From Octopus vulgaris (taxonomy: Eukaryota), in the NCBI GenBank assembly GCA_951406725.2, contig OX597817.1:123690001-123754000 (forward strand): a stretch of DNA of 64,000 bases, written 5' to 3'. The notes under the pieces were generated by a model that saw only the letters and a list, made by a program, of their open reading frames with translations, made no database searches and had not been told where the DNA came from. Both the position numbers and the translations under genes were made by a program. Below, piece after piece: positions 7,179-52,997 of this stretch (the first letter of the stretch is position 1; each line of letters begins with the position of its first letter).

Positions 7179-8374
7179 AGTTTCTTTATGGGTCACACAG
7201 GGCTGCACACAGATGGGACAAGTTACAAGGTAGAGCTTTTCTTTTGGGGGATGAATAAAACAAAAAACATAATAAAAAAAAAAGGGGGTGGCGTAGGTTT
7301 TCGATCAAGAGGGATCGTAAAAGGGAAGAAAAGAACAAAAAAAAATAAATAAAAGAAAAAAAAGAAAAAAAGAAAAGAAAAAAAGAAAAGAAAAGGAAAA
7401 GGAACAAAAGAAAAGAGAAATGAAAAAAGAAGAAAAAAGGGGAAGAGGAAAAAAAAACGATCAATAGGGATCGTGTATCACAGTGTTATGATATATGGTG
7501 TAAAGGGGAAAGCAAGTAAGGTTTATCCGTGGGAAGAAAAGCCTACGAAAAAGACCACGGTAACCTTGGTCAATATTGTTATATGTTACCACATTTGTTT
7601 GCAAGTGGGTAACCCTCTGTTTTCAATTTCTGGGTTCATAGGATTATGCTCAAGGTGGCTTCGTCATTCATATGTGCCATCCTTGCTACATTCATCCATC
7701 TTTTTTTAAAACATTCGCTAGACAAAACTTGCCTCTCTACTCTCACTTTCCTTTTCAAGTGGTACTTGAAGAAGTTGATGAGAGATTGACCAGAGAGGAA
7801 AGTGTTTGTCTCCAATCCTTTCAGACGCGTCCACCAGATACATTCTTTCGCCATAGCCACAAGGATGATGAAAATAGCTCTTCCTTCCCGTTTGAAGGAA
7901 GGAGGCGTGGCAATATTGACGATAGACTCAGCTGATAAACTGACTCGTCCCACACGTGACAGCAGTTGTTCGACATAAGCCCACAGGTCGGAAATTGTTG
8001 GACACTGCACGAGTGCGTGCAGAACGGTTTCATTGCTCTGACCGCATCTCGGGCAGGTTGGCCCCGTGTTTCTCGAGCCTTGTCTGTAGAGCTTATCCCA
8101 AACGGGTAGCACTTCTAGGTAGCACTGCCAGGCCAGGGATCTCTGGAAGTTGTCCATGGGCCCTGGCCCGAAAGTCGTCCTGAACAGGCGGGTCAGGTAC
8201 TCCTCGTCGACGTCCAGGTTCGCCCCGAGCTCGTCGTCGTACCTCCCCTCCACTAATCCCTATAGAATGCTTTGGTTGTGTTGAAGTCACTCAAGGTTGA
8301 CCCAGGACGGCAGAGTTGCTTGAGAGTTGCTTGAGAGCAACGCGACACTCGCGGTGCCATTCGCCCTTCCTCGA
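7179..8374 (-). mobile_element. 5'-truncated Tx1/L1-type LINE (ORF2 C-terminus plus 3' UTR)
   Basis: ORF 7636-8253 has CPRC-x8-HALVQC zinc knuckle and IWWTR motif. 15-bp direct repeat AGAGAGAGAAAGATA at 7164-7178 and 8375-8389. Confidence 0.85.
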
Positions 8375-15377: not shown

Positions 15378-16233
15378 GATTTTCATAAGTTACTGTAATA
15401 TATTTTGTATTTATTTTATATTGAAGTGTAAAATTTCTGTCTTCCACACATAAGGTTTGTCTTTTCAGGTGCTAATGCCACTTAAAAAGCATCTGTGTCA
15501 GTGCTGCTTTAATGCACTCATGATAATGACACGTAAAATGCACCCAACACATTCTGTTAAGTAGTTGATGTTAGGAAAGGGCATCCAGCTATAGAAACCA
15601 TGCCACAACAGATAGTTGTAGTCCAGACAGCTCTCTGCCAGCCAGTTTCACGTCAAATCATCCAACCCATGCCAGTATGGTGAGCAGATGTTGATGATGA
15701 TGATGGTGATGATGATAATGAAGATGAAGATGAGGATGATTGAAGTTATTGAAAATCTGAGTTGTTGGTCACAGGTTTTGTAACAGATCAGCCATGTAAT
15801 GATGGCATTTCTGATGGTGAAGATGACTAAGGTGTGCTGACTCAATACACAACCAATATCACAAGAGACTTCATTTGTAAAACACTGCACCTTTGATTTT
15901 CTCACTGACAATTGTCTCCTGCACCAATATACGTCAAGGAACATTCCAGATCTGGAAGAAAGGGTAGTGTCCATGGTCTTTGTAAACCCTTCCAGACCAA
16001 TGAGATCAATGTTATTTATGTTCTTTTTGCAGTAATGGAAATAGGAGGTTTGTGGCTTAGTGGTTAGGGTAGTCGACTCATGATCGTAAGATTGTGGTTT
16101 TGATTCCTGAATCTAGGCAATGCATTGTGTTCTTGAGCAAGATACTTCATTTCACATTGCTCCAGTCTACTTAGCTGGCAAAAATGAGTAATCTTATGAT
16201 GGACCACCATCCCATTCCATCCAGGTACTCTCT

Positions 16234-16638
16234 CTTACTCTTTTACTCTTTTACTTGTTTCAGTCATTTGACAGTGGCCATGCTGGAGCACCGCCTTTAC
16301 TCGAGCAGATCGACCCCAGGACATATTCTTTGTAAGCCTGGTACTTATTCTATCGGTCTCTTTTGCCAAACCACTAAGTTATGAGGATGTAGACATACCA
16401 CCATCGGTTGTCAAGCAATGTTAGGGGGACAAACACAGACACACAAACACACACATTTATATATACATATACATATATACGACGAGCTACTTTCAGTTTC
16501 TGTCTACCAAATCCACTCACAAGGCTTTGGTCGGCCTGAGGCTATAGTAGAAGACACTTGCCCAAAGTGCCATGCAGTGGGACTGAACACGGAACCATGT
16601 GGTTGGTAAGTAAGCTACTTACCACACAGCCACTCCTG
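16234..16638 (-). mobile_element. SINE family A, nested in a family C SINE
   Basis: Reverse complement of 14979-15377. The host SINE C continues on both sides (16045-16225 and 16640-16705). Confidence 0.88.
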
Positions 16639-16978: not shown

Positions 16979-17382
16979 GGCGCAGGAGTGGCTGTGTGAT
17001 AAGTAGCTTGCTAACCAACCACATGGCTCCGGGTTCAGTCCCACTGCGTGGCATCTTGGGCAAGTGTCTTCTGCTATAGCCCCGGGCCGACCAATGCCTT
17101 GTGAGTGGATTTGGTAGATGGAAACTGAAAGAAGCCTGTCGTATATATGTATATATACATGTATGTGTGTGTGTTTGTGTGTCTGTGTTTGTCCCCCTAG
17201 CATTGCTTGACAACCGATGCTGGTGTGTTTACGTCCCCGTCACTTAGCGGTTCGGCTAAAGAGACCGATAGAATAAGTACTGGGCTTACAAAGAACAAGT
17301 CCTGGGGTCGATTTGCTCGACTAAAGGCGGTGCTCCAGCATGGCCGCAGTCAAATGACTAAAACAAGTAAAAGAGTAAAGAG
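16979..17382 (+). mobile_element. SINE family A (CpG-rich, probably young)
   Basis: Full-length match to the other family A copies. Confidence 0.9.
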
Positions 17383-17389
17383 ATAAGAC

Positions 17390-17690
17390 GGAGTCAGAAG
17401 ACAACATGGTGTGAATCAAATGTAGAAGCATGTCTGAGAGTAACATTATGCCAATCAGTATGGAGGCAGTCTTTTTGGATACATTCTGAGATGTCTAAAT
17501 ATTTTGCTACAACTCTGTTCCAGATGTGTGAACAATATTGTATCAGAGGCCTCACCTAAGCTTTGGAGAGGGTTTATAATTGTGGGAAACTGAAGAGAAT
17601 AGCTAATTGTTGGAATGCAGTCCTAGAGATATTAAAGATGTGATCCTCAGCCACAACAAGACATAATATTTGGAACAATTGTGAGTTTCC
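17390..17690 (-). mobile_element. Decayed CR1/Jockey-group RT C-terminal fragment
   Basis: Minus strand TLSKA*VRPLIQYCSHIW...LDISECIQ. Confidence 0.55.
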
Positions 17691-25190: not shown

Positions 25191-25720
25191 ACAACAACAA
25201 CAACAAAAATAATCCTTTCTATTATGGGCACAAGGCCTGAAATTTTGGTGGGAGCGGGGCTAATTGATTATGCTGACTCCAGTGCATAACTGGTACTTAT
25301 TTCATTGATGCCGAAAGGATGAAAGGCAAAGTTAACCTCAGTAAAATGCTGTTAAGCATTATGCCCACCATGATAATGATTTTGGGAGCTTACTGCCTTC
25401 ATAATAATAATAACAATAATAATCGTTTCTACTAAAAGCACAAAGCCTGAAATTTGGTGGAGATGGGACTAGTTGATTACATCAACCCCAGTGTTTCACT
25501 GGTACTTAATTTATCAACCCAGACAGGATGAAAGGCAAAGTTGACCTCGGCAGAATTTAAACTCAGAACGTAGCAATAGGCGAAATACCACTAAGCATTT
25601 TGCCCAGCATACTAATGATTTTGCAGCACACCACCTTTATAATAATAATGATGATGATGATGATGATGATGATAAATGCTGTAACAGCAACATGCGATTC
25701 AATGGTAACACAGTATGATA

Positions 25721-26050
25721 ACAATTGTAGTGTGGAAGGTGTTTATAAGCCATTTAAGAAACACACGAAAACCATTAGATTCACTTCAACATTTAAATTT
25801 AATCTGCCAAAATAATTTTGTCACTTTGAGACCTGTTCACTGACAAAATTCCGTGCTGCAGAATTTCGTCAGTGAACAGGCCGTGGTCTCAAAGCTACGA
25901 AAATATTTTGGCAGATTAAATTTAAATGCTGAAGAGAATCTAACAGTTTTTGTGTGTTTCTTAAATGGCTTATAAACACACCTTCCTCACTACAATTGTT
26001 CTCCTTCCAGCAGATCTCAGATCAAGTCACTTGCTATGCAAGTACATTGT
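25721..26050. mobile_element. Foldback element with hammerhead-like arms (G3:C8 core)
   Basis: Inverted repeat 25720-26000 plus a ~50-bp unpaired tail. TSD AGTATGATA at 25712-25720 and 26051-26059. Confidence 0.75.
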
Positions 26051-26734
26051 AGTATGATAGAATTATAGAAAAGAAAAAAGAATTTAAAAAATAACCACAT
26101 TAACAAATAAAGCCAAGAAGAATGGTAACAATGATGCAACTTAAGGCAGTGAGCTGGCAGAAACGTTAGCATGCTGAGCAAAATGCCTAGTGGTATTTCA
26201 TCTGTCTTTATGTTCTGAGTTCAAATTCTGCCAAAGCTGACTTCGCCGTTCATCCTTTCGGGGTCGATAAATTAGGAACCAGTTGCATACTGGGGCCAAT
26301 CTAATCAACTGGCCCCCACTACCCAAAATTTTGGGGCCTTGTGCCTAGAGTAGAAAAGAATAATGATGCAATTTGATTAGAAGCCACATATATGCAAATG
26401 ACATAATACATCATGATATAACTTAGCTTTGGTGCACATAACAACCTGTAAAGGGAGCACATTGCATCCTATTGTTAAAGGCAAAAACACAACAAAAAGC
26501 AAGGGAAATAAAACTTACATTTTATTAGCAGTTATCTGATCAAACAAAACCTGAATTCTGTGCCAATCACCATTTTGTTTTAGCTAAAGGCTAGCATAAA
26601 TAGCTTCAGGTCTTAAGTATAGCTAAGCAGTGTAACTCCTGACATGATAAAGTTTGTTAAAACATTTTGTTGCCTGTTTCTCTCTTTCTCTCTCTCACTT
26701 TCTGCCTATCTATATATATGTGTGTGTGAGTGTA

Positions 26735-27214: not shown

Positions 27215-29560
27215 TTGCGATTCCTTTTTTTTAGGGAGAAAATACCACAATCACATGTCAGACCCGACACAACACAAAATTTTAATGAACACACAAAAAA
27301 TATAGACCCAAAGATCATGGATTTGTCAAACAGAGACCTCAACAAGGATGAGATGAACCTCCTATTAAAAGGTTTCAAGTTTACCCCAACACCCACCCCT
27401 AATCTCATTGAACTGAAATCTGATATTGAACATTTTAACCTCCGCCTTCAACATAGAATTCTTAAGCAATAAGAATATAAATGATGAATCACTAGTCAGA
27501 AATGAATCCCATTTCCCCCTCTACAAGGGAAATGATAAATATTTAGAGGCATATATAGACACAATTTCAAAATTTCCCCTAAATACCCACAGATGCAAAC
27601 AAAACCTTTGTGAAGAAGAAGAAGAGGAAGCCTTACTAACATGGAAGAATGACAACTCAGTCATCCTAAAAGAAGCCGATAAAGGAAGAGTGATAGTAAT
27701 CATGGACAAGGACTACTATGAAAATAAAATATTGGAAATTTTAACAGACCAAACCTAATACAAGGAAGAACCAAGACGCCTAGAAAAAACAATAATGAAT
27801 AAAATCAGATGACTAATCAATGAATTCCAAGATTCCTTCACAGACAAGGAGAAAGAATATAAATTCAACTCTGTAATCAAAGGGAGCAATTTCTACAGAT
27901 TACCCAAAATCCACAGAGCTCCAAAATACAAAGTGCCATAAATAAGCAGAAGAACCAATACATAAAAATACTAAGGCCTGCTGACCTCAAACTAAGACCA
28001 ATAGTTGCTGGACCTCAAGCACCAACACAAAAACTAAGTCATGTTTTAGATGTACTCCTAAAACCTTTGTGCCTTTTAATACCCAGTTATATATTGGATG
28101 ACATAGATTTCATCCAGCACATCTTACCCACTGTTCAAGACGGTACTATACTTACATGTTTTGATGCCACCAGTCTTTTATACCAATATACCTCATGCTT
28201 TAGTCCTAGAAGCAGTCAATCACTAGGTAGAGAAACATACAGGATGGATGAATGAATACTTCAAGACTAACTTCATCACCAAGGCCTCAAGCCTGTGCTG
28301 GAAGAAAATACCTTTAGATCTGATAATAAAACATATTGACAAAAAAAGGGAATGGCTATGGGGACATGGTTTGCACCCTCATATGCAACCTTAGTCATGG
28401 GATACTTGGAAGAAAAACTTTATGAGGAATTAGAGAAAACTTTTGATCAAGAGTACAAGAAATATATCCATTAAAAAGTGGAAAAGTTTCCTGAATGATT
28501 GCTTCATCTTTTGGGACAGATAAAATGAGGACCTAAGTATATTTAACAAAATACTGAACACACTTCACCCATCAATCAAATTCCCAACAAAATCTAGTTG
28601 CAATGAATTATCATTGCTTGATATCCACATAAGCATATAGAACTATGCAGTCACAACATATATTTTACAAAAACACTGACACACACCAATATTTAAATTT
28701 TTACATCAAAAGGAACATCTCATACAGCATGGCAAGACACATCTGTGCTACAGTGACTGACCCCAACATGTGTGAAATATGACTCAACAAGCTCAAAGAC
28801 TTTCTCACAATGCAGAAATACCTCTTAGGACTAATTAATGAGGGAATTAAAAAGGTGATGAAACTGAGCATCACCCAACTACAGACACCCAAGGAAAAAA
28901 TTAATGAACACACGCTTCCATTTGTTCACACATACAGTCCTGGGTTAACCAACATCTTTCACACCATAAAATTGAACTTAGCTATACTCCTACAAAGCCC
29001 CAAAATGAAAAATCTGAATGAAAGAAATTCCTTACAGAATAGTAGATGCCAAATAAAAAATTTCCAAAAGACACCTTACAAGAGCAGAATTCACATCAGA
29101 GAATGAATCAGAATTCTTAGTAAAAGAATGTGGAGATTGATGTGGAATATACAATAACAACAACTTTAAATACTTAGAAAGTGGTTCCCACATAAAATTC
29201 AAGAGCAGATTCTCATTCAAAATAAAGGCAGATATAAACTGCAAGCTGCAGAATCTCATATACTGTATGACCTGTCCCAACTGCAAAGAAAATTACACTG
29301 GCAAAACAAATAATTCCCTTTGCCAACATGTAAGAATCCACAGGCAGCATCTCCGACAAGAGAAATTATGCAAGATTTCATTAAGTAAGTATCTGAAAAT
29401 ATGCAGTGATGAAAAATTCAAGATCTTTTCCTTTTAGAAATGTTCATGGGATAACCTGCAATACCAAGAAGCAATGGAGCTACACTGGCAATCATTAAGG
29501 AAACTTTTCCACTTCATCAAAAATTTCTCTCCAAAAGTGAATGTTTGAAAGAAAAGCAGA
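27215..29560 (+). pseudogene. Decayed Penelope-like retroelement ORF (RT plus C-terminal GIY-YIG)
   Basis: LLKGFKFTPTP, LKEADKGRVIVIMD, FYRLPKIH, LRPIVAG, FDATSL(Y)TNIPH, GMAMGT.FAPSYA.LVMGYLEE, NISYSMAR, NLIYCMTCPNCKENYTGKT. Many stops and frameshifts. Confidence 0.92.
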
Positions 29561-29734
29561 GAATTTGCATTTTTGATTCCAAATGTAGCTCCAATATTGG
29601 TAACATGATGCTCAACTCTATAAATATTCATGTATATAAATATAACATTGGGATATTCTAACTTTGTGCATTTTTCTAATTTGTAAATAACGTACTAATG
29701 ATTTTTCATGCGAAAACCTGACTCTATATATATG

Positions 29735-37184: not shown

Positions 37185-37722
37185 CATTGATTAACAATTC
37201 AAAGTGAATTACTCCTTTGCAATCCCACCAGATAGAGAAAAGAACCTTTTTCCTATGAAGTTCCCTTCTCGGTTGTGGTTGAGCTTTTTCCCTTTTACCA
37301 AACCACTGTTTACGATGTTTAACTTTTCAGTAGAAGATCCATTTTTCATCACCAATCACAATTCTATCCAAAAAGGGTAAAATGAGTTAACGCGAATGAA
37401 GAGAAGAGCAGATGTCAAGTCGGGATTTGCAGTTGTTTTCGGACAATTCATGAGCCACCCATTTTCCAAGTATAGGAACTTTTCCAAGTTGTTGAAGATG
37501 ACGATGAACAGTTGTATGGTTTGAACTAAGCTTTATTGCCAATTCTTCAACTGATAATGCAGGATTTTCTTCAAGTAATGTCTCAAGGAGCTTCTCATCA
37601 AACTCAACTGGACGTCCTGTTCGATCTTCATCTTCAAGGCTGAAATCTCCACTTCTGAATTTTGCAAACCATCTTCTGCAAATTCTTTCATTCAAGCATT
37701 CTTCCCCATAAACATATTTCAA
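37185..37722 (-). mobile_element. Mariner transposase fragment (second family)
   Basis: VYGEECL...RRWFAKFRSGDFSLEDEDRTGRP...WVAHELS...FLDRIVIGDEKWIFY...SIWWDCKGVIHFELL. Confidence 0.92.
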
Positions 37723-37906
37723 CTGATTACAGCATTTGTTAATTATACAGTGTGCTTGTGATTGTTTAAACTACATACATTTTGCTGTTCATATTCTAAG
37801 AATGATATGAAAAGAAGAGTAGTTATTGTTGTTGTTTAAGGACTACACATATACTGATCATCCTACTTTGTGTTACTGTATTCTTCTTTATTTTAAGTGT
37901 CTAGTG

Positions 37907-43772: not shown

Positions 43773-43899
43773 TATTGAAAAGGTTGCAAGACACAACGAA
43801 CATTTTAGAAAAATAAAAAAGAAATAAGTGGAAATTTTACTGGTGAGTGTGTTAAATTATAAGGCACCAAAAGAGAATGACTCTCCCCAGACACAACAG
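43773..43899 (+). mobile_element. Single arm of the 49015-49343 foldback family
   Basis: TATTGAAAAGGTTGCAAGACACAACGAACATTTTAG...CCCCAGACACAACAG matches the arm at 49150-49281. Confidence 0.85.
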
Positions 43900-47800: not shown

Positions 47801-49014
47801 CACCTGCTTCACTCCTACCTTTAAGAAAATGGCATATGATGAAATCTTTTAGCTTTTTGAGAAATTTGCCTCTTGCAAAGAAACTTGGGAAAAGTATCTG
47901 AAGTGGTTTCACTAAAGCTTGTTATGCACACATACACATTAATAGGCACAGATGTGGCTGTGTGGTAAGAAGTTTGCTTCCCAACCACATGCTTCCAGGT
48001 TCAGTCCCACTGTGTGGCATCTTGCACAAGTGTCTTCTAATATTGTCTCAGGCTGACCAAAGCCTTGTGAGTGGATTTTGTAGACAGAAACTGAAAGAGA
48101 CCCATTGTGTATATCATCATCATCATCATCATCATCATTATCGATTGTGTGTGTGTGTGTAAATAAATAGATAGATAGATGAATATATGTACACACACAT
48201 GATGAAGGTGATGATGATGTATATATAGATACACACAGACATAAATTATGAATAACCATAAATACATGCACTAATATGAAAGGGTTAATGGTTATTACTA
48301 CTATTATACAACCAGTTACAATGCCAAGATAGCTGCATGCATGTTTTCAATACATAAACGTACATACACAGGTGTACATATATACAAAACAATATTCATT
48401 TACACACTTGGACCCATACACACTCACATATACTGTCACACCCACAAACACATAAACACTGGTCATTCAAATACTGTAATACATGCAAAGAAACTCGTCC
48501 CAAAACACTCATTCCGTTGATCATGCCTTCAAATCATGATATCTCTAGAAGCGAGTGGATTATAAGATTATTATTACATATTTCCATATATTATGCCATT
48601 ATATTACATAACATTATATGAATCGTATAACTTTGTATGAGATATGGAATGAAAATATTGTCTGTTTATGGAAACAATTGAAATGTCAATTTGACTTTTC
48701 CTTTCCTGACTTAAATTATTACTTTTATTACTCACTCTGTGAGGCTTATATTAAGCCTACTGGATCATACCTTGGAGTGATGTAGATCTCCCCTTTATAT
48801 CAATTGAAGGCTTACGGATCACCTTTTGATTTTGGAATGCTGTGCTAGCCAGGATGCTACTTGTTGTGCTAATGAGGTAATACCCAGGATTATAGTTATC
48901 TCCTCAATCTCTATACATATCTTTTATCTTTTACATGTCTTAATTATTAGGCTGTGGCCATGCTGAGGCATGATATTGAGGAATTTTTATTTGAATGAAA
49001 CAATTCCAGAACTT

Positions 49015-49343
49015 CTGTTGCATCTGGGGAGAGTCATTTTCTTTTTGTGCCTTATAATGTAACACACTCACCGGTGAAATTTCCACTTATTTCTTATTTT
49101 TATTTTCCTAAAATTTTCGTTGCGTCTTGCAACCTTTTTGATAGTTAACTATTGAAAAGGTTGCAAGATGCAACGAAAATTTTAGGAAAATAAAAAAAAT
49201 GAAAAAAGTGGAAATTTCATCGGTGAGTGTGTTACATTATAAGGTACAAAAAGAAAATGACTCCCTCCAGACACAACAGAATATGCTTCAACACACGAAC
49301 TCATATAAAGAATCTTGCAAACCAAATCCCAAAACGAAATTTT
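49015..49343. mobile_element. Foldback element with hammerhead-like arms (U3:A8 core), inserted in a minus-strand SINE A
   Basis: Palindrome 49013-49281 centred on ATAGTTAACTAT, plus a ~60-bp tail. AGAACTT at 49008-49014 and 49344-49350. Confidence 0.8.
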
Positions 49344-49784
49344 AGAACTTATTTTTTTTATAAGCCTGGAATATATTCTATTAGTATCTTTTACCAAACT
49401 GCTAGGTTACAGGGAGATGTAAACACACTAACACCAGTTGCCAAGCAGGGGTGAGAGACAAACACAGACACAAAGACACACACACACACACACACTTTAC
49501 AGCATGGACTAGGTGCTTTTTCTGTTCCACCTGCACTATTGTGGTTTCTATGCAATTCACAAGACTGCAAGCTCTGGGGTAGATAGGTGGGGACATAGTA
49601 TGTTTCTTGTTTAGGGATGAGGGAATTATAATGAGAAAGTTGGGAAGAGCAGGTTCCTGTAAATTGATTTGCATGGCTACTCACATCTAGCATGAACGAA
49701 AAAGAGATAATGCATGCACAAGTACACACACACACACATGCATGCACATAGAAAGAACATGTATATATAAATATATATATATAC

Positions 49785-52107: not shown

Positions 52108-52249
52108 CATTATATGCATGTATGTATATATGTATATATATAATCAAATATTGTCATATAATTTAGGAATAAGTCTCAAATGTGTTCATTCTAGAATGAT
52201 TACATTTGCTATTAGAAAACAAGTAATTCTTCTTTAACAATAAATATTG

Positions 52250-52980
52250 CATTCAAATAAATGGGAAAACAATGAGAACTGCTGATGCATCCACTTTTAC
52301 AACATGAATAAAATGATTCTTGGAAGGAAAAAGGTTTATGACTTGGGGTTATTTTTGCAGAGAGTTTCTAAAATCTTATTTAATAGAGTATTGGCTAATA
52401 TTCTTTAATGTCTGATTCATATTTTGGAAGAGATATAAGGAAGATCATACAAAATTTCAAAAATTATTCACTAGCATTCATGAATCATTCAACTTCACAA
52501 TGGAAATTAATCAAAGAGAACTTCCATTTCTGGATATTCTGATGATTAAGGAAAATCAGATTATTACAGCTGATCTCTACCACAATGAAATGGATATACA
52601 CTAGTAATTAGATTTACTATTCAACCTATATTAAAAGAAATATCCCATTTAATATAATAAATTATATATGTGCAGTAGTTATAGATTCAACTAGAAGTGA
52701 AAGAGAACTGGAAGAACTGAAAGTATTCCTCCAATGACAAAAATAGCCAAAACACTTAATAAACAATGGCATGACAAAAGGGAAAAAAAAACATCAAAAT
52801 ACTTGACTTACAAGAAATTCTCACAATGTAAGAAAAGACAGAAATAGAAGCATCCCATTTGTAGACATCTGTAACATCATGCATTCTACCATTCATTGTG
52901 TTCCAGTTCTACATATGTCACCATTTTTTAGCAAGGCAATTGAAAAATTACAAGTTATTAGCAATGCAAGACAACCATTG
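52250..52980 (+). pseudogene. Decayed Penelope-like RT fragment
   Basis: FTMEINQRELPFLDILMIK...TADLY...KRNIPF. Confidence 0.7.
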
Positions 52981-52997
52981 TTTTTAAAAAAAATTTA

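What the first reader, a model, noticed from the sequence alone, without database searches (positions are those of the whole stretch)
25712..26059. Foldback retro-insertion whose arms fold as minimal hammerheads with a swapped G3:C8 core
Seen: a ~280-bp inverted repeat, a 50-bp unpaired tail and a 9-bp TSD. The right arm reads TTCGTCA-GTGAACA-G-(stem II, partly decayed)-GAA-AATATT-T-TGGCAGA. The left arm on the minus strand gives TTTGTCA/TGGCAGA, a 7-bp stem I, with stem II GTC/GAC. Established: hammerhead positions 3 and 8 form a tertiary Watson-Crick pair. PLE hammerheads have short palindromic stem III, and PLE insertions often show inverted pLTRs with a tail. Inference: GUGAACA is CUGANGA with a compensatory C3G/G8C swap, which standard motif searches would miss.
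Basis: partly seen in the sequence, partly recalled or inferred. Interest (0 to 1): 0.75.

Follow-up and report, generated by a model that had tools for sequence, protein, structure and literature searches.

The report
Swapped-core hammerhead in Penelope-type insertion
This 330-base fold-back is likely a dead, cut-down insertion of a high-copy Penelope-like jumping gene, and its family carries a small hammerhead-ribozyme motif in which two paired core letters are swapped (G3:C8); a likely related family 23 kb away has U3:A8 at the same two positions, which suggests a natural variant that standard motif searches would miss, but self-cleavage is untested.

Summary
The fold-back (25721-25999), 51-nt tail and 9-bp target duplication are real. 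The element belongs to a high-copy family (5768, 3512, 1810 and 275 contigs in four runs) with variable inversion junctions, head-to-tail joints and two 3' ends: Penelope-like (PLE) anatomy, not a DNA transposon's. The right arm matches a minimal type I hammerhead with core GUGAACA (only descriptor hit in the window; 0 in 20 Mb of null sequence), and family-majority letters repair its helices. A second fold-back at 49015-49343 has the same layout, a known U3:A8 core at the same place and a similar tail peptide, so positions 3 and 8 likely covary between related families. Neither arm here is an intact ribozyme: the left lacks G12, the right has a broken stem II. Cleavage and a linked RT ORF were not shown. 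I found natural U3:A8 in print but not natural G3:C8; two key papers were unavailable. This scan noted G3-C8 motifs with an added letter before, in four notes on other genomes. Verdict: new variant of a known kind.

The parts
25712..25720 (.). Target-site duplication, 5' copy (AGTATGATA)
25721..25860 (-). Left arm: inverted, 5'-truncated, tail-less copy of the element end
   Evidence: the minus strand begins with 9 extra family bases that match the family's 5' loose end (table 7)
25803..25847 (-). Left-arm hammerhead remnant: GUGAACA kept (G3 at 25840), G12 changed to A (25819), 6-nt deletion in stem II
   Evidence: coordinates derived by hand from that alignment
25861..25999 (+). Right arm: direct, 5'-truncated copy starting 11 nt upstream of hammerhead position 3
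25865..25915 (+). Minimal type I hammerhead motif: stem I 25865-71/25909-15, stem II 25880-84/25894-98, G12-A14 25899-901, palindromic stem III 25902-907, N17 = U at 25908
   Evidence: helix-repairing family letters; activity untested
25872..25878 (+). Core strand GUGAACA (G3 and C8 in place of C3 and G8)
   Evidence: sequence; same in both arms
25965..26047 (+). Likely start of the PLE ORF carried in the pLTR and tail; frameshifted in this copy
   Evidence: inference by analogy with PAc (PMC11167929)
26000..26050 (+). One-sided tail; family match ends at 26047, then 3 non-family bases
   Evidence: tables 2, 7
26051..26059 (.). Target-site duplication, 3' copy
49015..49343 (.). Comparison element, not part of the finding: second fold-back with 7-bp TSD, U3:A8 minimal hammerhead at 49152 and tail; likely a related PLE family
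43773..43899 (+). Solo tail-less copy of the U3:A8 family

Best explanation
The fold-back is likely one dead, 5'-truncated insertion of a high-copy Penelope-like retroelement family, whose terminal repeat carries a minimal type I hammerhead motif with a G3:C8 core that probably self-cleaved weakly, as a dimer or with help from the element's protein, while the family was spreading. Shown: the inverted tail-less copy, the direct tailed copy, the 9-bp duplication, the high copy number, the GUGAACA core, and decay of both arms. Inferred mechanism: the element's endonuclease nicked AT-rich DNA; reverse transcription started at two sites inside the ORF start, giving one tailed and one tail-less end; both cDNAs stopped just upstream of the hammerhead and were joined head to head. 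The 3:8 tertiary pair was kept through a double transversion (G:C here, U:A in the related family), which points to selection on the hammerhead fold. This copy has since lost G12 in one arm and stem II in the other, and a read-through transcript would fold into one long hairpin.
For: Anatomy matches PLE insertions as described in PMC8557442 (inverted 5'-truncated copy, one-sided tail) and PMC11167929 (tail between two RT start sites inside the ORF); 5768/3512/1810/275 contigs laid. 4 of 15 shown joints change strand, each at a different place pair, three with one end at 25861-68. Joints lead from the tail end 26047 back to 25873, 25921, 25949 and 26015. Loose ends behind 26047 (143/135/121/16 contigs) agree for 9 more letters, then scatter. 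T25896 reads G in 87-97% of depth (restores a stem II pair); G25914 reads A in 99-100% and G25911 reads A in 50-85% (both letters pair with U). Both arms share letters rare in the family (G25914, A25992), so they came from one template. Related family: core-to-arm-end distance 127 vs 128 nt; DNA alignment above all 2000 dinucleotide shuffles; its tail is the best other match to this tail peptide among 127,924 six-frame 12-mers of the window (28 vs next 24), reached by 1 of 5000 shuffles; its motif folds as the hammerhead frame at MFE. The C3G/G8C double mutant partly restores cleavage in a PLE hammerhead (PMC11167929).
Against: No cleavage data. No RT/GIY-YIG ORF linked: no genome is held, two protein searches with the putative N-termini found nothing, and no N-terminus among 170 PLE proteins matched. 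Rfam hammerhead models hit neither element at E up to 10. Cover of the core is thin (36,000-68,000 vs 1-3 million summed depth in X1), and 14 variant rows were hidden. By the tallies these include one G>C (three runs) and three C>G changes at unseen places, so a C3:G8 subfamily is not excluded. Two single contigs show another letter at position 3 (table 5c). Family letters at 25881 and 25884 are seen only in one two-contig loose end. DNA-level kinship of the two families depends on scoring: rank 2 and rank 1 under two schemes, absent from the top 8 under two gap-averse schemes. Invariance of the core is weak evidence, because some flanks are as invariant. The PAc hammerhead is dispensable for insertion in vitro.
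Confidence: 0.62

Rival explanations
1. Same Penelope-like insertion, but the G3:C8 motif was already non-catalytic when the family spread: a hammerhead descendant kept as a fold (protein-binding or transcript-start signal) or carried along passively.
For: PLE minimal hammerheads cleave poorly even with the standard core (PMC4209133); the double mutant is only a partial rescue, and hammerhead mutants do not reduce PAc insertion in vitro; none of 56 representative PLE hammerheads has G3:C8.
Against: Two transversions at exactly 3 and 8 that keep a Watson-Crick pair, with U4, G5, A6, A9, G12, A13, A14 and A15.1 equal in both right arms, are hard to explain without selection on the catalytic fold.
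Confidence: 0.22
2. A short non-autonomous retroelement (retrozyme- or SINE-like derivative of a PLE terminal repeat, about 200 nt) with its own fixed 5' end, moved in trans; no ORF-bearing master of this family exists.
For: 5' loose ends lose agreement about 20 nt upstream of G3 (table 7); no linked ORF found; animal retrozymes are described as non-autonomous PLE derivatives (bioRxiv 10.64898/2026.07.22.740005).
Against: Retrozymes form full-unit tandem arrays, whereas here the joints are inverted or partial; the 3' half keeps a protein-like signal shared with the second family. This rival does not change the hammerhead reading.
Confidence: 0.1
3. A non-autonomous DNA transposon (Mutator-like MITE or Foldback type) with long terminal inverted repeats and a 9-bp duplication; the hammerhead look is chance.
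For: 9-bp TSD, long inverted arms, and a 5-bp match between the two extreme ends of this copy. That Mutator-like elements make 9-bp TSDs is recalled.
Against: The tail lies between the arm and the TSD on one side only; the family continues past 26047 with other letters, so the 5-bp end match is not a family feature; inversion points vary and head-to-tail joints occur; the related element has a 7-bp TSD and a solo one-arm copy; 0 descriptor hits in the nulls.
Confidence: 0.04

Closest known systems
Minimal type I hammerheads in PLE pseudo-LTRs (min-HHR; Cervera and de la Pena 2014, PMC4209133)
   Same: Type I topology, extra base after A9, G10.1-C11.1, GAAA, palindromic short helix III, N17 = U, U-rich 5' and AU-rich 3' flanks, copies on opposite strands close together.
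   Different: Core GUGAACA. Of the 56 listed representatives, 53 have C3:G8, 2 U3:A8, 1 U3.G8 and none G3:C8 (counted by hand). The extra base is G (consensus H; G in 1 of 56). None of the 56 has U at 16.2. Their descriptor fixes cuganga.
U3:A8 natural core variant (Perreault 2011, PMC3088659; Schistosoma Cercyon PLEs, PMC4209133)
   Same: Natural compensatory change of the same tertiary pair; present in this window at 49152 and 43775.
   Different: Purine and pyrimidine change sides (G3:C8), which needs two transversions from either known form.
PAc (Poseidon PLE of Anolis carolinensis; PMC11167929)
   Same: Hammerhead just upstream of or overlapping the ORF start; tail inside the ORF start (111-118 nt in PAc; about 90 nt after the first ATG here); AT-rich targets.
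   Different: PAc has C3:G8 and a known ORF; C3G/G8C is a lab double mutant there, natural here; no ORF linked here.
Non-LTR retrozymes of animals (PMC7761336; bioRxiv 10.64898/2026.07.22.740005)
   Same: Short non-coding repeat with a type I hammerhead, PLE-related.
   Different: No full-unit tandem array seen; inverted-plus-tail insertion; minimal rather than canonical hammerhead.

Membership tests
Minimal type I hammerhead (PLE type) | Core strand CUGANGA literally | tested here: not met
   GTGAACA at 25872 in both arms
Minimal type I hammerhead (PLE type) | Watson-Crick 3:8 pair with U4, G5, A6, A9 | tested here: met
   G3:C8, other letters standard; U3:A8 in the related family
Minimal type I hammerhead (PLE type) | G12-A13-A14, A15.1-U16.1, H17 | tested here: met
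   Right arm 25899-908; no hidden A>N or G>A rows in X1 or X15 tallies. Not met in the left arm (G12A)
Minimal type I hammerhead (PLE type) | Helix I of 3-7 bp | tested here: met
   6 of 7 pairs in the right arm, 7 of 7 in the left arm
Minimal type I hammerhead (PLE type) | Helix II closed by G10.1-C11.1 | tested here: inconclusive
   3 of 5 pairs in this copy; one pair restored by the 87-97% majority letter, the others seen only in one two-contig loose end
Minimal type I hammerhead (PLE type) | Palindromic helix III allowing a dimer | tested here: met
   AATATT 25902-907
Minimal type I hammerhead (PLE type) | Match to an Rfam hammerhead model | tested here: not met
   No hit at E up to 10; the U3:A8 comparison element is missed too
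Minimal type I hammerhead (PLE type) | Self-cleavage 3' of N17 | not testable with these tools
   Needs an in vitro assay
Penelope-like elements (EN+) | Inverted 5'-truncated copy next to a direct copy | tested here: met
   variable strand-changing joints
Penelope-like elements (EN+) | One-sided tail (30-40 bp in print) | tested here: met
   48-51 nt here, about 60 nt in the related element; somewhat longer than described
Penelope-like elements (EN+) | Partial tandem (head-to-tail) arrangement | tested here: met
   Four single-contig joints from 26047 back into the unit (tables 5, 5c)
Penelope-like elements (EN+) | RT plus GIY-YIG ORF flanked by this repeat | tested here: inconclusive
   No genome held; searches blank; the nearby PLE ORF at 27236-29610 shares no flank with it
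Mutator-like MITE / Foldback DNA transposon | Inverted repeats flush with the TSD at both ends and fixed internal layout | tested here: not met
   51-nt tail on one side; variable junctions
Non-LTR retrozyme | Tandem arrays of full units, each with a hammerhead | tested here: inconclusive
   Not in the window; contigs too short to show arrays

The most novel reading that the evidence does not exclude
An active natural hammerhead with an exact G3:C8 core, no other core change, fixed in a Penelope-like family that spread to thousands of copies in several octopus-like genomes, beside a related U3:A8 family. This would add the third natural Watson-Crick state of the 3:8 pair and would mean that CUGANGA-based surveys have missed whole PLE hammerhead families, so claims of hammerhead-less PLE clades would need a re-scan.
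Probability: 0.45. Interest if true: 0.65.

Novelty: new variant of a known kind. Interest (0 to 1): 0.5.

Why it matters
The C3G/G8C swap is the classic laboratory test of the hammerhead's tertiary pair; a natural family fixed for it, with a U3:A8 relative in the same genome, is the phylogenetic counterpart of that test. It also bears on an open question: whether PLE minimal hammerheads are under selection for catalysis. A double transversion that keeps the pair says the fold matters. In practice, published descriptors fix cuganga, so a GUGANCA descriptor is a cheap re-scan, including for Naiad/Chlamys PLEs reported to lack hammerheads. The insertion itself is an ordinary dead copy.

Tried and rejected
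No whole genome is held. Pattern scans of metagenome contigs (10 loci) and viral contigs (3 loci) gave only chance matches: 1 of 13 loci had any BLAST hit, 23 nt long. No RNA holder is on record ('no RNA holder listed'); X15 is only guessed to be RNA, so nothing is claimed on expression. Rfam gave only hairpin/miRNA noise. The decayed PLE ORF at 27236-29610 was tested as the partner and rejected for want of shared flanks. The supplement of PMC8557442 holds neither the DNA nor the peptide motifs (line breaks can hide matches), nor does that of PMC13282606 (no repeat library in it). Protein searches with the two putative N-termini were blank, as was the ESM Atlas; all are weak tests for 25-30 real residues. 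A 6x6-frame peptide comparison of the two whole arms was not significant (181 of 1000 shuffles). My first frame for the second element was off by one and was corrected. GTCAC/GTGAC stem II variants were not counted as compensatory, because CpG decay explains both. The tail hairpin is not stronger than shuffles (z -0.81). The bacterial promoter scan is irrelevant here. An intron reading (GT at 25934-35 in the family majority to AG at 26009-10) keeps the frame but was not needed and not tested. Look-ups of earlier scan notes by sequence, place and two word sets were blank.

Full report
Setting. The window is AT-rich (GC 22-42%) animal-type DNA full of microsatellites and SINE-like repeats. The highest-identity named hit of a nearby PLE fragment is an Octopus bimaculoides protein (66%), so I call the host octopus-like; that is an inference. 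No genome is held.

Observation. A 9-bp direct repeat (25712-20, 26051-59) frames a 330-bp insert. The insert is an inverted arm (25721-25860, minus), a direct arm (25861-25999) and a 51-nt one-sided tail. The arms differ at 11 of 131 aligned bases, plus a 6-nt and a 2-nt indel. On the plus strand the right arm reads stem I, GTGAACA, G, stem II, GAA, AATATT, T, stem I'. A descriptor that allows any Watson-Crick 3:8 pair finds only this site on both strands of the window and none in two 20-Mb Markov nulls; it was tuned to pass this copy. The left arm has A for G12 and a deleted stem II strand. The right arm has 6 of 7 stem I pairs but 3 of 5 stem II pairs, the hammerhead frame is 12.5 kcal/mol above the MFE, and within the whole element its stems have probability 0.0. 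The arms are antisense to each other, so they cannot make the sense-sense dimer.

The family. Twenty of 24 listed runs, under seven organism codes, hold part of the insert, none with half its words. I laid 4 of these runs (organism codes A, B, C, A) on 25852-26075 at 80% likeness: 5768, 3512, 1810 and 275 contigs were laid (not a copy number). Majority letters repair the helices where this copy is broken: T25896 is G in 87-97% of depth, pairing with C25882; G25914 is A in 99-100% and G25911 is A in 50-85%, each pairing with U either way. One two-contig loose end shows the 5' strand of stem II as GTCAC after the intact core. T25896A (3-12%) fits CpG decay. Both arms share G25914 and A25992, which are rare in the family, so they were copied from one template. 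Limits: the core is thinly covered (36,000-68,000 against 1-3 million summed depth in X1); 16 of the 32 listed pieces span it, but their letters are not shown; 14 variant rows were hidden. From the per-run tallies, no hidden row changes an A in X1, X4 or X15, none is G>A in any run, and X15 has no G>C or C>G. One G>C (X1, X3, X4) and three C>G rows are at unseen places and could mark a C3:G8 subfamily. Two single contigs show another letter at position 3 (table 5c).

Retro-insertion, not DNA transposon. In one search, 4 of 15 shown joints change strand, at different places (25861/25926, 25864/25915, 25868/25948, 25918/26013). Single contigs run from the tail end back into the unit (26047 to 25873, 25921, 25949, 26015). 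Behind 26047 the loose ends agree for nine more letters and then scatter (143, 135, 121, 16 contigs). Behind 25979 they agree to about the arm end and then scatter (68, 90, 57, 19 contigs); this is only suggestive, because this copy's 2-nt insertion forces loose ends there. PLE insertions are described as an inverted 5'-truncated copy with a one-sided 30-40 bp tail (PMC8557442, passages), and the tail as the stretch between two RT start sites inside the ORF start (PMC11167929, main text).

An internal comparison. A self-BLAST of the window found one other short-spacer fold-back, at 49013-49281. It has a 7-bp TSD (49008-14, 49344-50), a head-to-head junction 4 nt upstream of a TTGAAAA core at 49152, the same extra G, a 6-bp stem II, GAA, palindromic AATT, U17 and a one-sided tail. 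Its motif folds as the hammerhead frame at MFE. A solo tail-less copy at 43773-43899 ends at the same point as its left arm. The two families look related. The distance from position 3 to the arm end is 127 and 128 nt. The arm-plus-tail alignment scores 87 against a shuffle mean of 48 (0 of 2000 reach it), but real window segments reach 86-90 under that scoring; it ranks first under a second scheme (115 vs 103) and is absent from the top 8 under two gap-averse schemes. The tail peptides share the pattern R..IK.LA.Q: best other match among 127,924 six-frame 12-mers, reached by 1 of 5000 shuffles. Read by hand from the loose-end letters and the translations, the match extends without gaps to 26 codons, from LPRCN to a final RN, with 14 identical residues (16 with the X1/X4 majority); 7 of the 14 use different codons. 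The three letters this copy lacks near 26012 and the nine behind 26047, neither used in the scoring, fill the gap and the end of that alignment. This points to a shared protein-coding ORF start in the tail, as in PAc. If the families are related, the 7-letter core differs only at 3 and 8 (G/C against U/A): a natural compensatory change between two lineages. It is one event, not a statistic.

Mechanism. Shown: anatomy, copy abundance, core letters, decay. Inferred: nicking of AT-rich DNA, two RT starts giving the tailed and tail-less ends, truncation just upstream of the hammerhead, head-to-head joining. Inferred and untested: weak cleavage after U17 by the intact family motif, as a dimer through AATATT or with protein help. 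In PAc the C3G/G8C double mutant partly restores cleavage, cleavage needs the protein, and the ribozyme is dispensable for insertion in vitro. PLE minimal hammerheads cleave poorly in general. No linked ORF was found; the decayed PLE at 27236-29610 shares no flank.

What is in print. Natural U3:A8 is known (PMC3088659 section 8; PMC4209133 parts 1-2). Of the 56 representative PLE hammerheads in the supplement of PMC4209133 (file 2, parts 1-2 read; file 1 not searchable), none has G3:C8. G3-C8 appears as a lab variant in PMC3884650 (passage). Searches for a natural G3:C8 and for octopus PLE hammerheads found none. Lunse 2017 and Arkhipova 2017 are not held and may list it; of Lunse I saw only a review's summary (PMC6765202, passages). 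Also seen: bioRxiv 10.64898/2026.07.22.740005 (parts 1-2 of 5; supplements closed), PMC13282606 (passages, supplement search), PMC6962438 and PMC7761336 (passages), PMC2920678 (part 1); term searches in PMC6257768 and PMC1636495 were empty. Earlier notes of this scan report G3-C8 motifs with one added core letter beside PLE RTs in other genomes, three of four described as protists; I did not check them. I cannot tell whether their added letter is the usual one after A9.

Verdict. A real, dead PLE-type insertion whose family most likely carries a minimal hammerhead with a natural G3:C8 core. It works like a PLE min-HHR. It fails the literal CUGANGA test and the Rfam test, and membership as an active ribozyme is untested. 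New variant of a known kind; interest 0.5.

Noticed in passing
window 49008-49350: Second PLE-type fold-back with 7-bp TSD, nearly intact U3:A8 minimal hammerhead at 49152 and tail; its stem II resembles that of Drosophila Penelope hammerheads in the PMC4209133 supplement. Used as comparison.
   Followed up: yes
window 43773-43899: Solo tail-less copy of the U3:A8 family between TA microsatellites; A15.1 is changed to C.
   Followed up: partly
window 27236-29610 (+): Decayed canonical PLE ORF (GFKFTPTP, DKG, RT, C-terminal GIY-YIG with a Cys-rich linker) broken by many stops and frameshifts; a possible decayed hammerhead core (CTAATGA...GAAA) lies near 29695-29716.
   Followed up: partly
window 52128-52995 (+): Second decayed PLE RT fragment, cut by a SINE-like repeat at its 3' side.
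   Followed up: no
window 16227-16638 and 16983-17394: 413-bp inverted pair (89%) made of two opposite copies of a common SINE-like repeat.
   Followed up: no
window 25241-25624 and 26157-26331: Copies of another short repeat flank the element in opposite orientation (175 nt, 77%); the insert sits between them.
   Followed up: no
window 25882-25899: This copy's stem II changes happen to create a 6-bp hairpin in a shifted register that pairs G12 away; could be quasi-palindrome repair or chance.
   Followed up: no
window 7636-8259 (-) and 37387-37770 (-): zf-RVT LINE fragment and mariner transposase HTH fragment.
   Followed up: no
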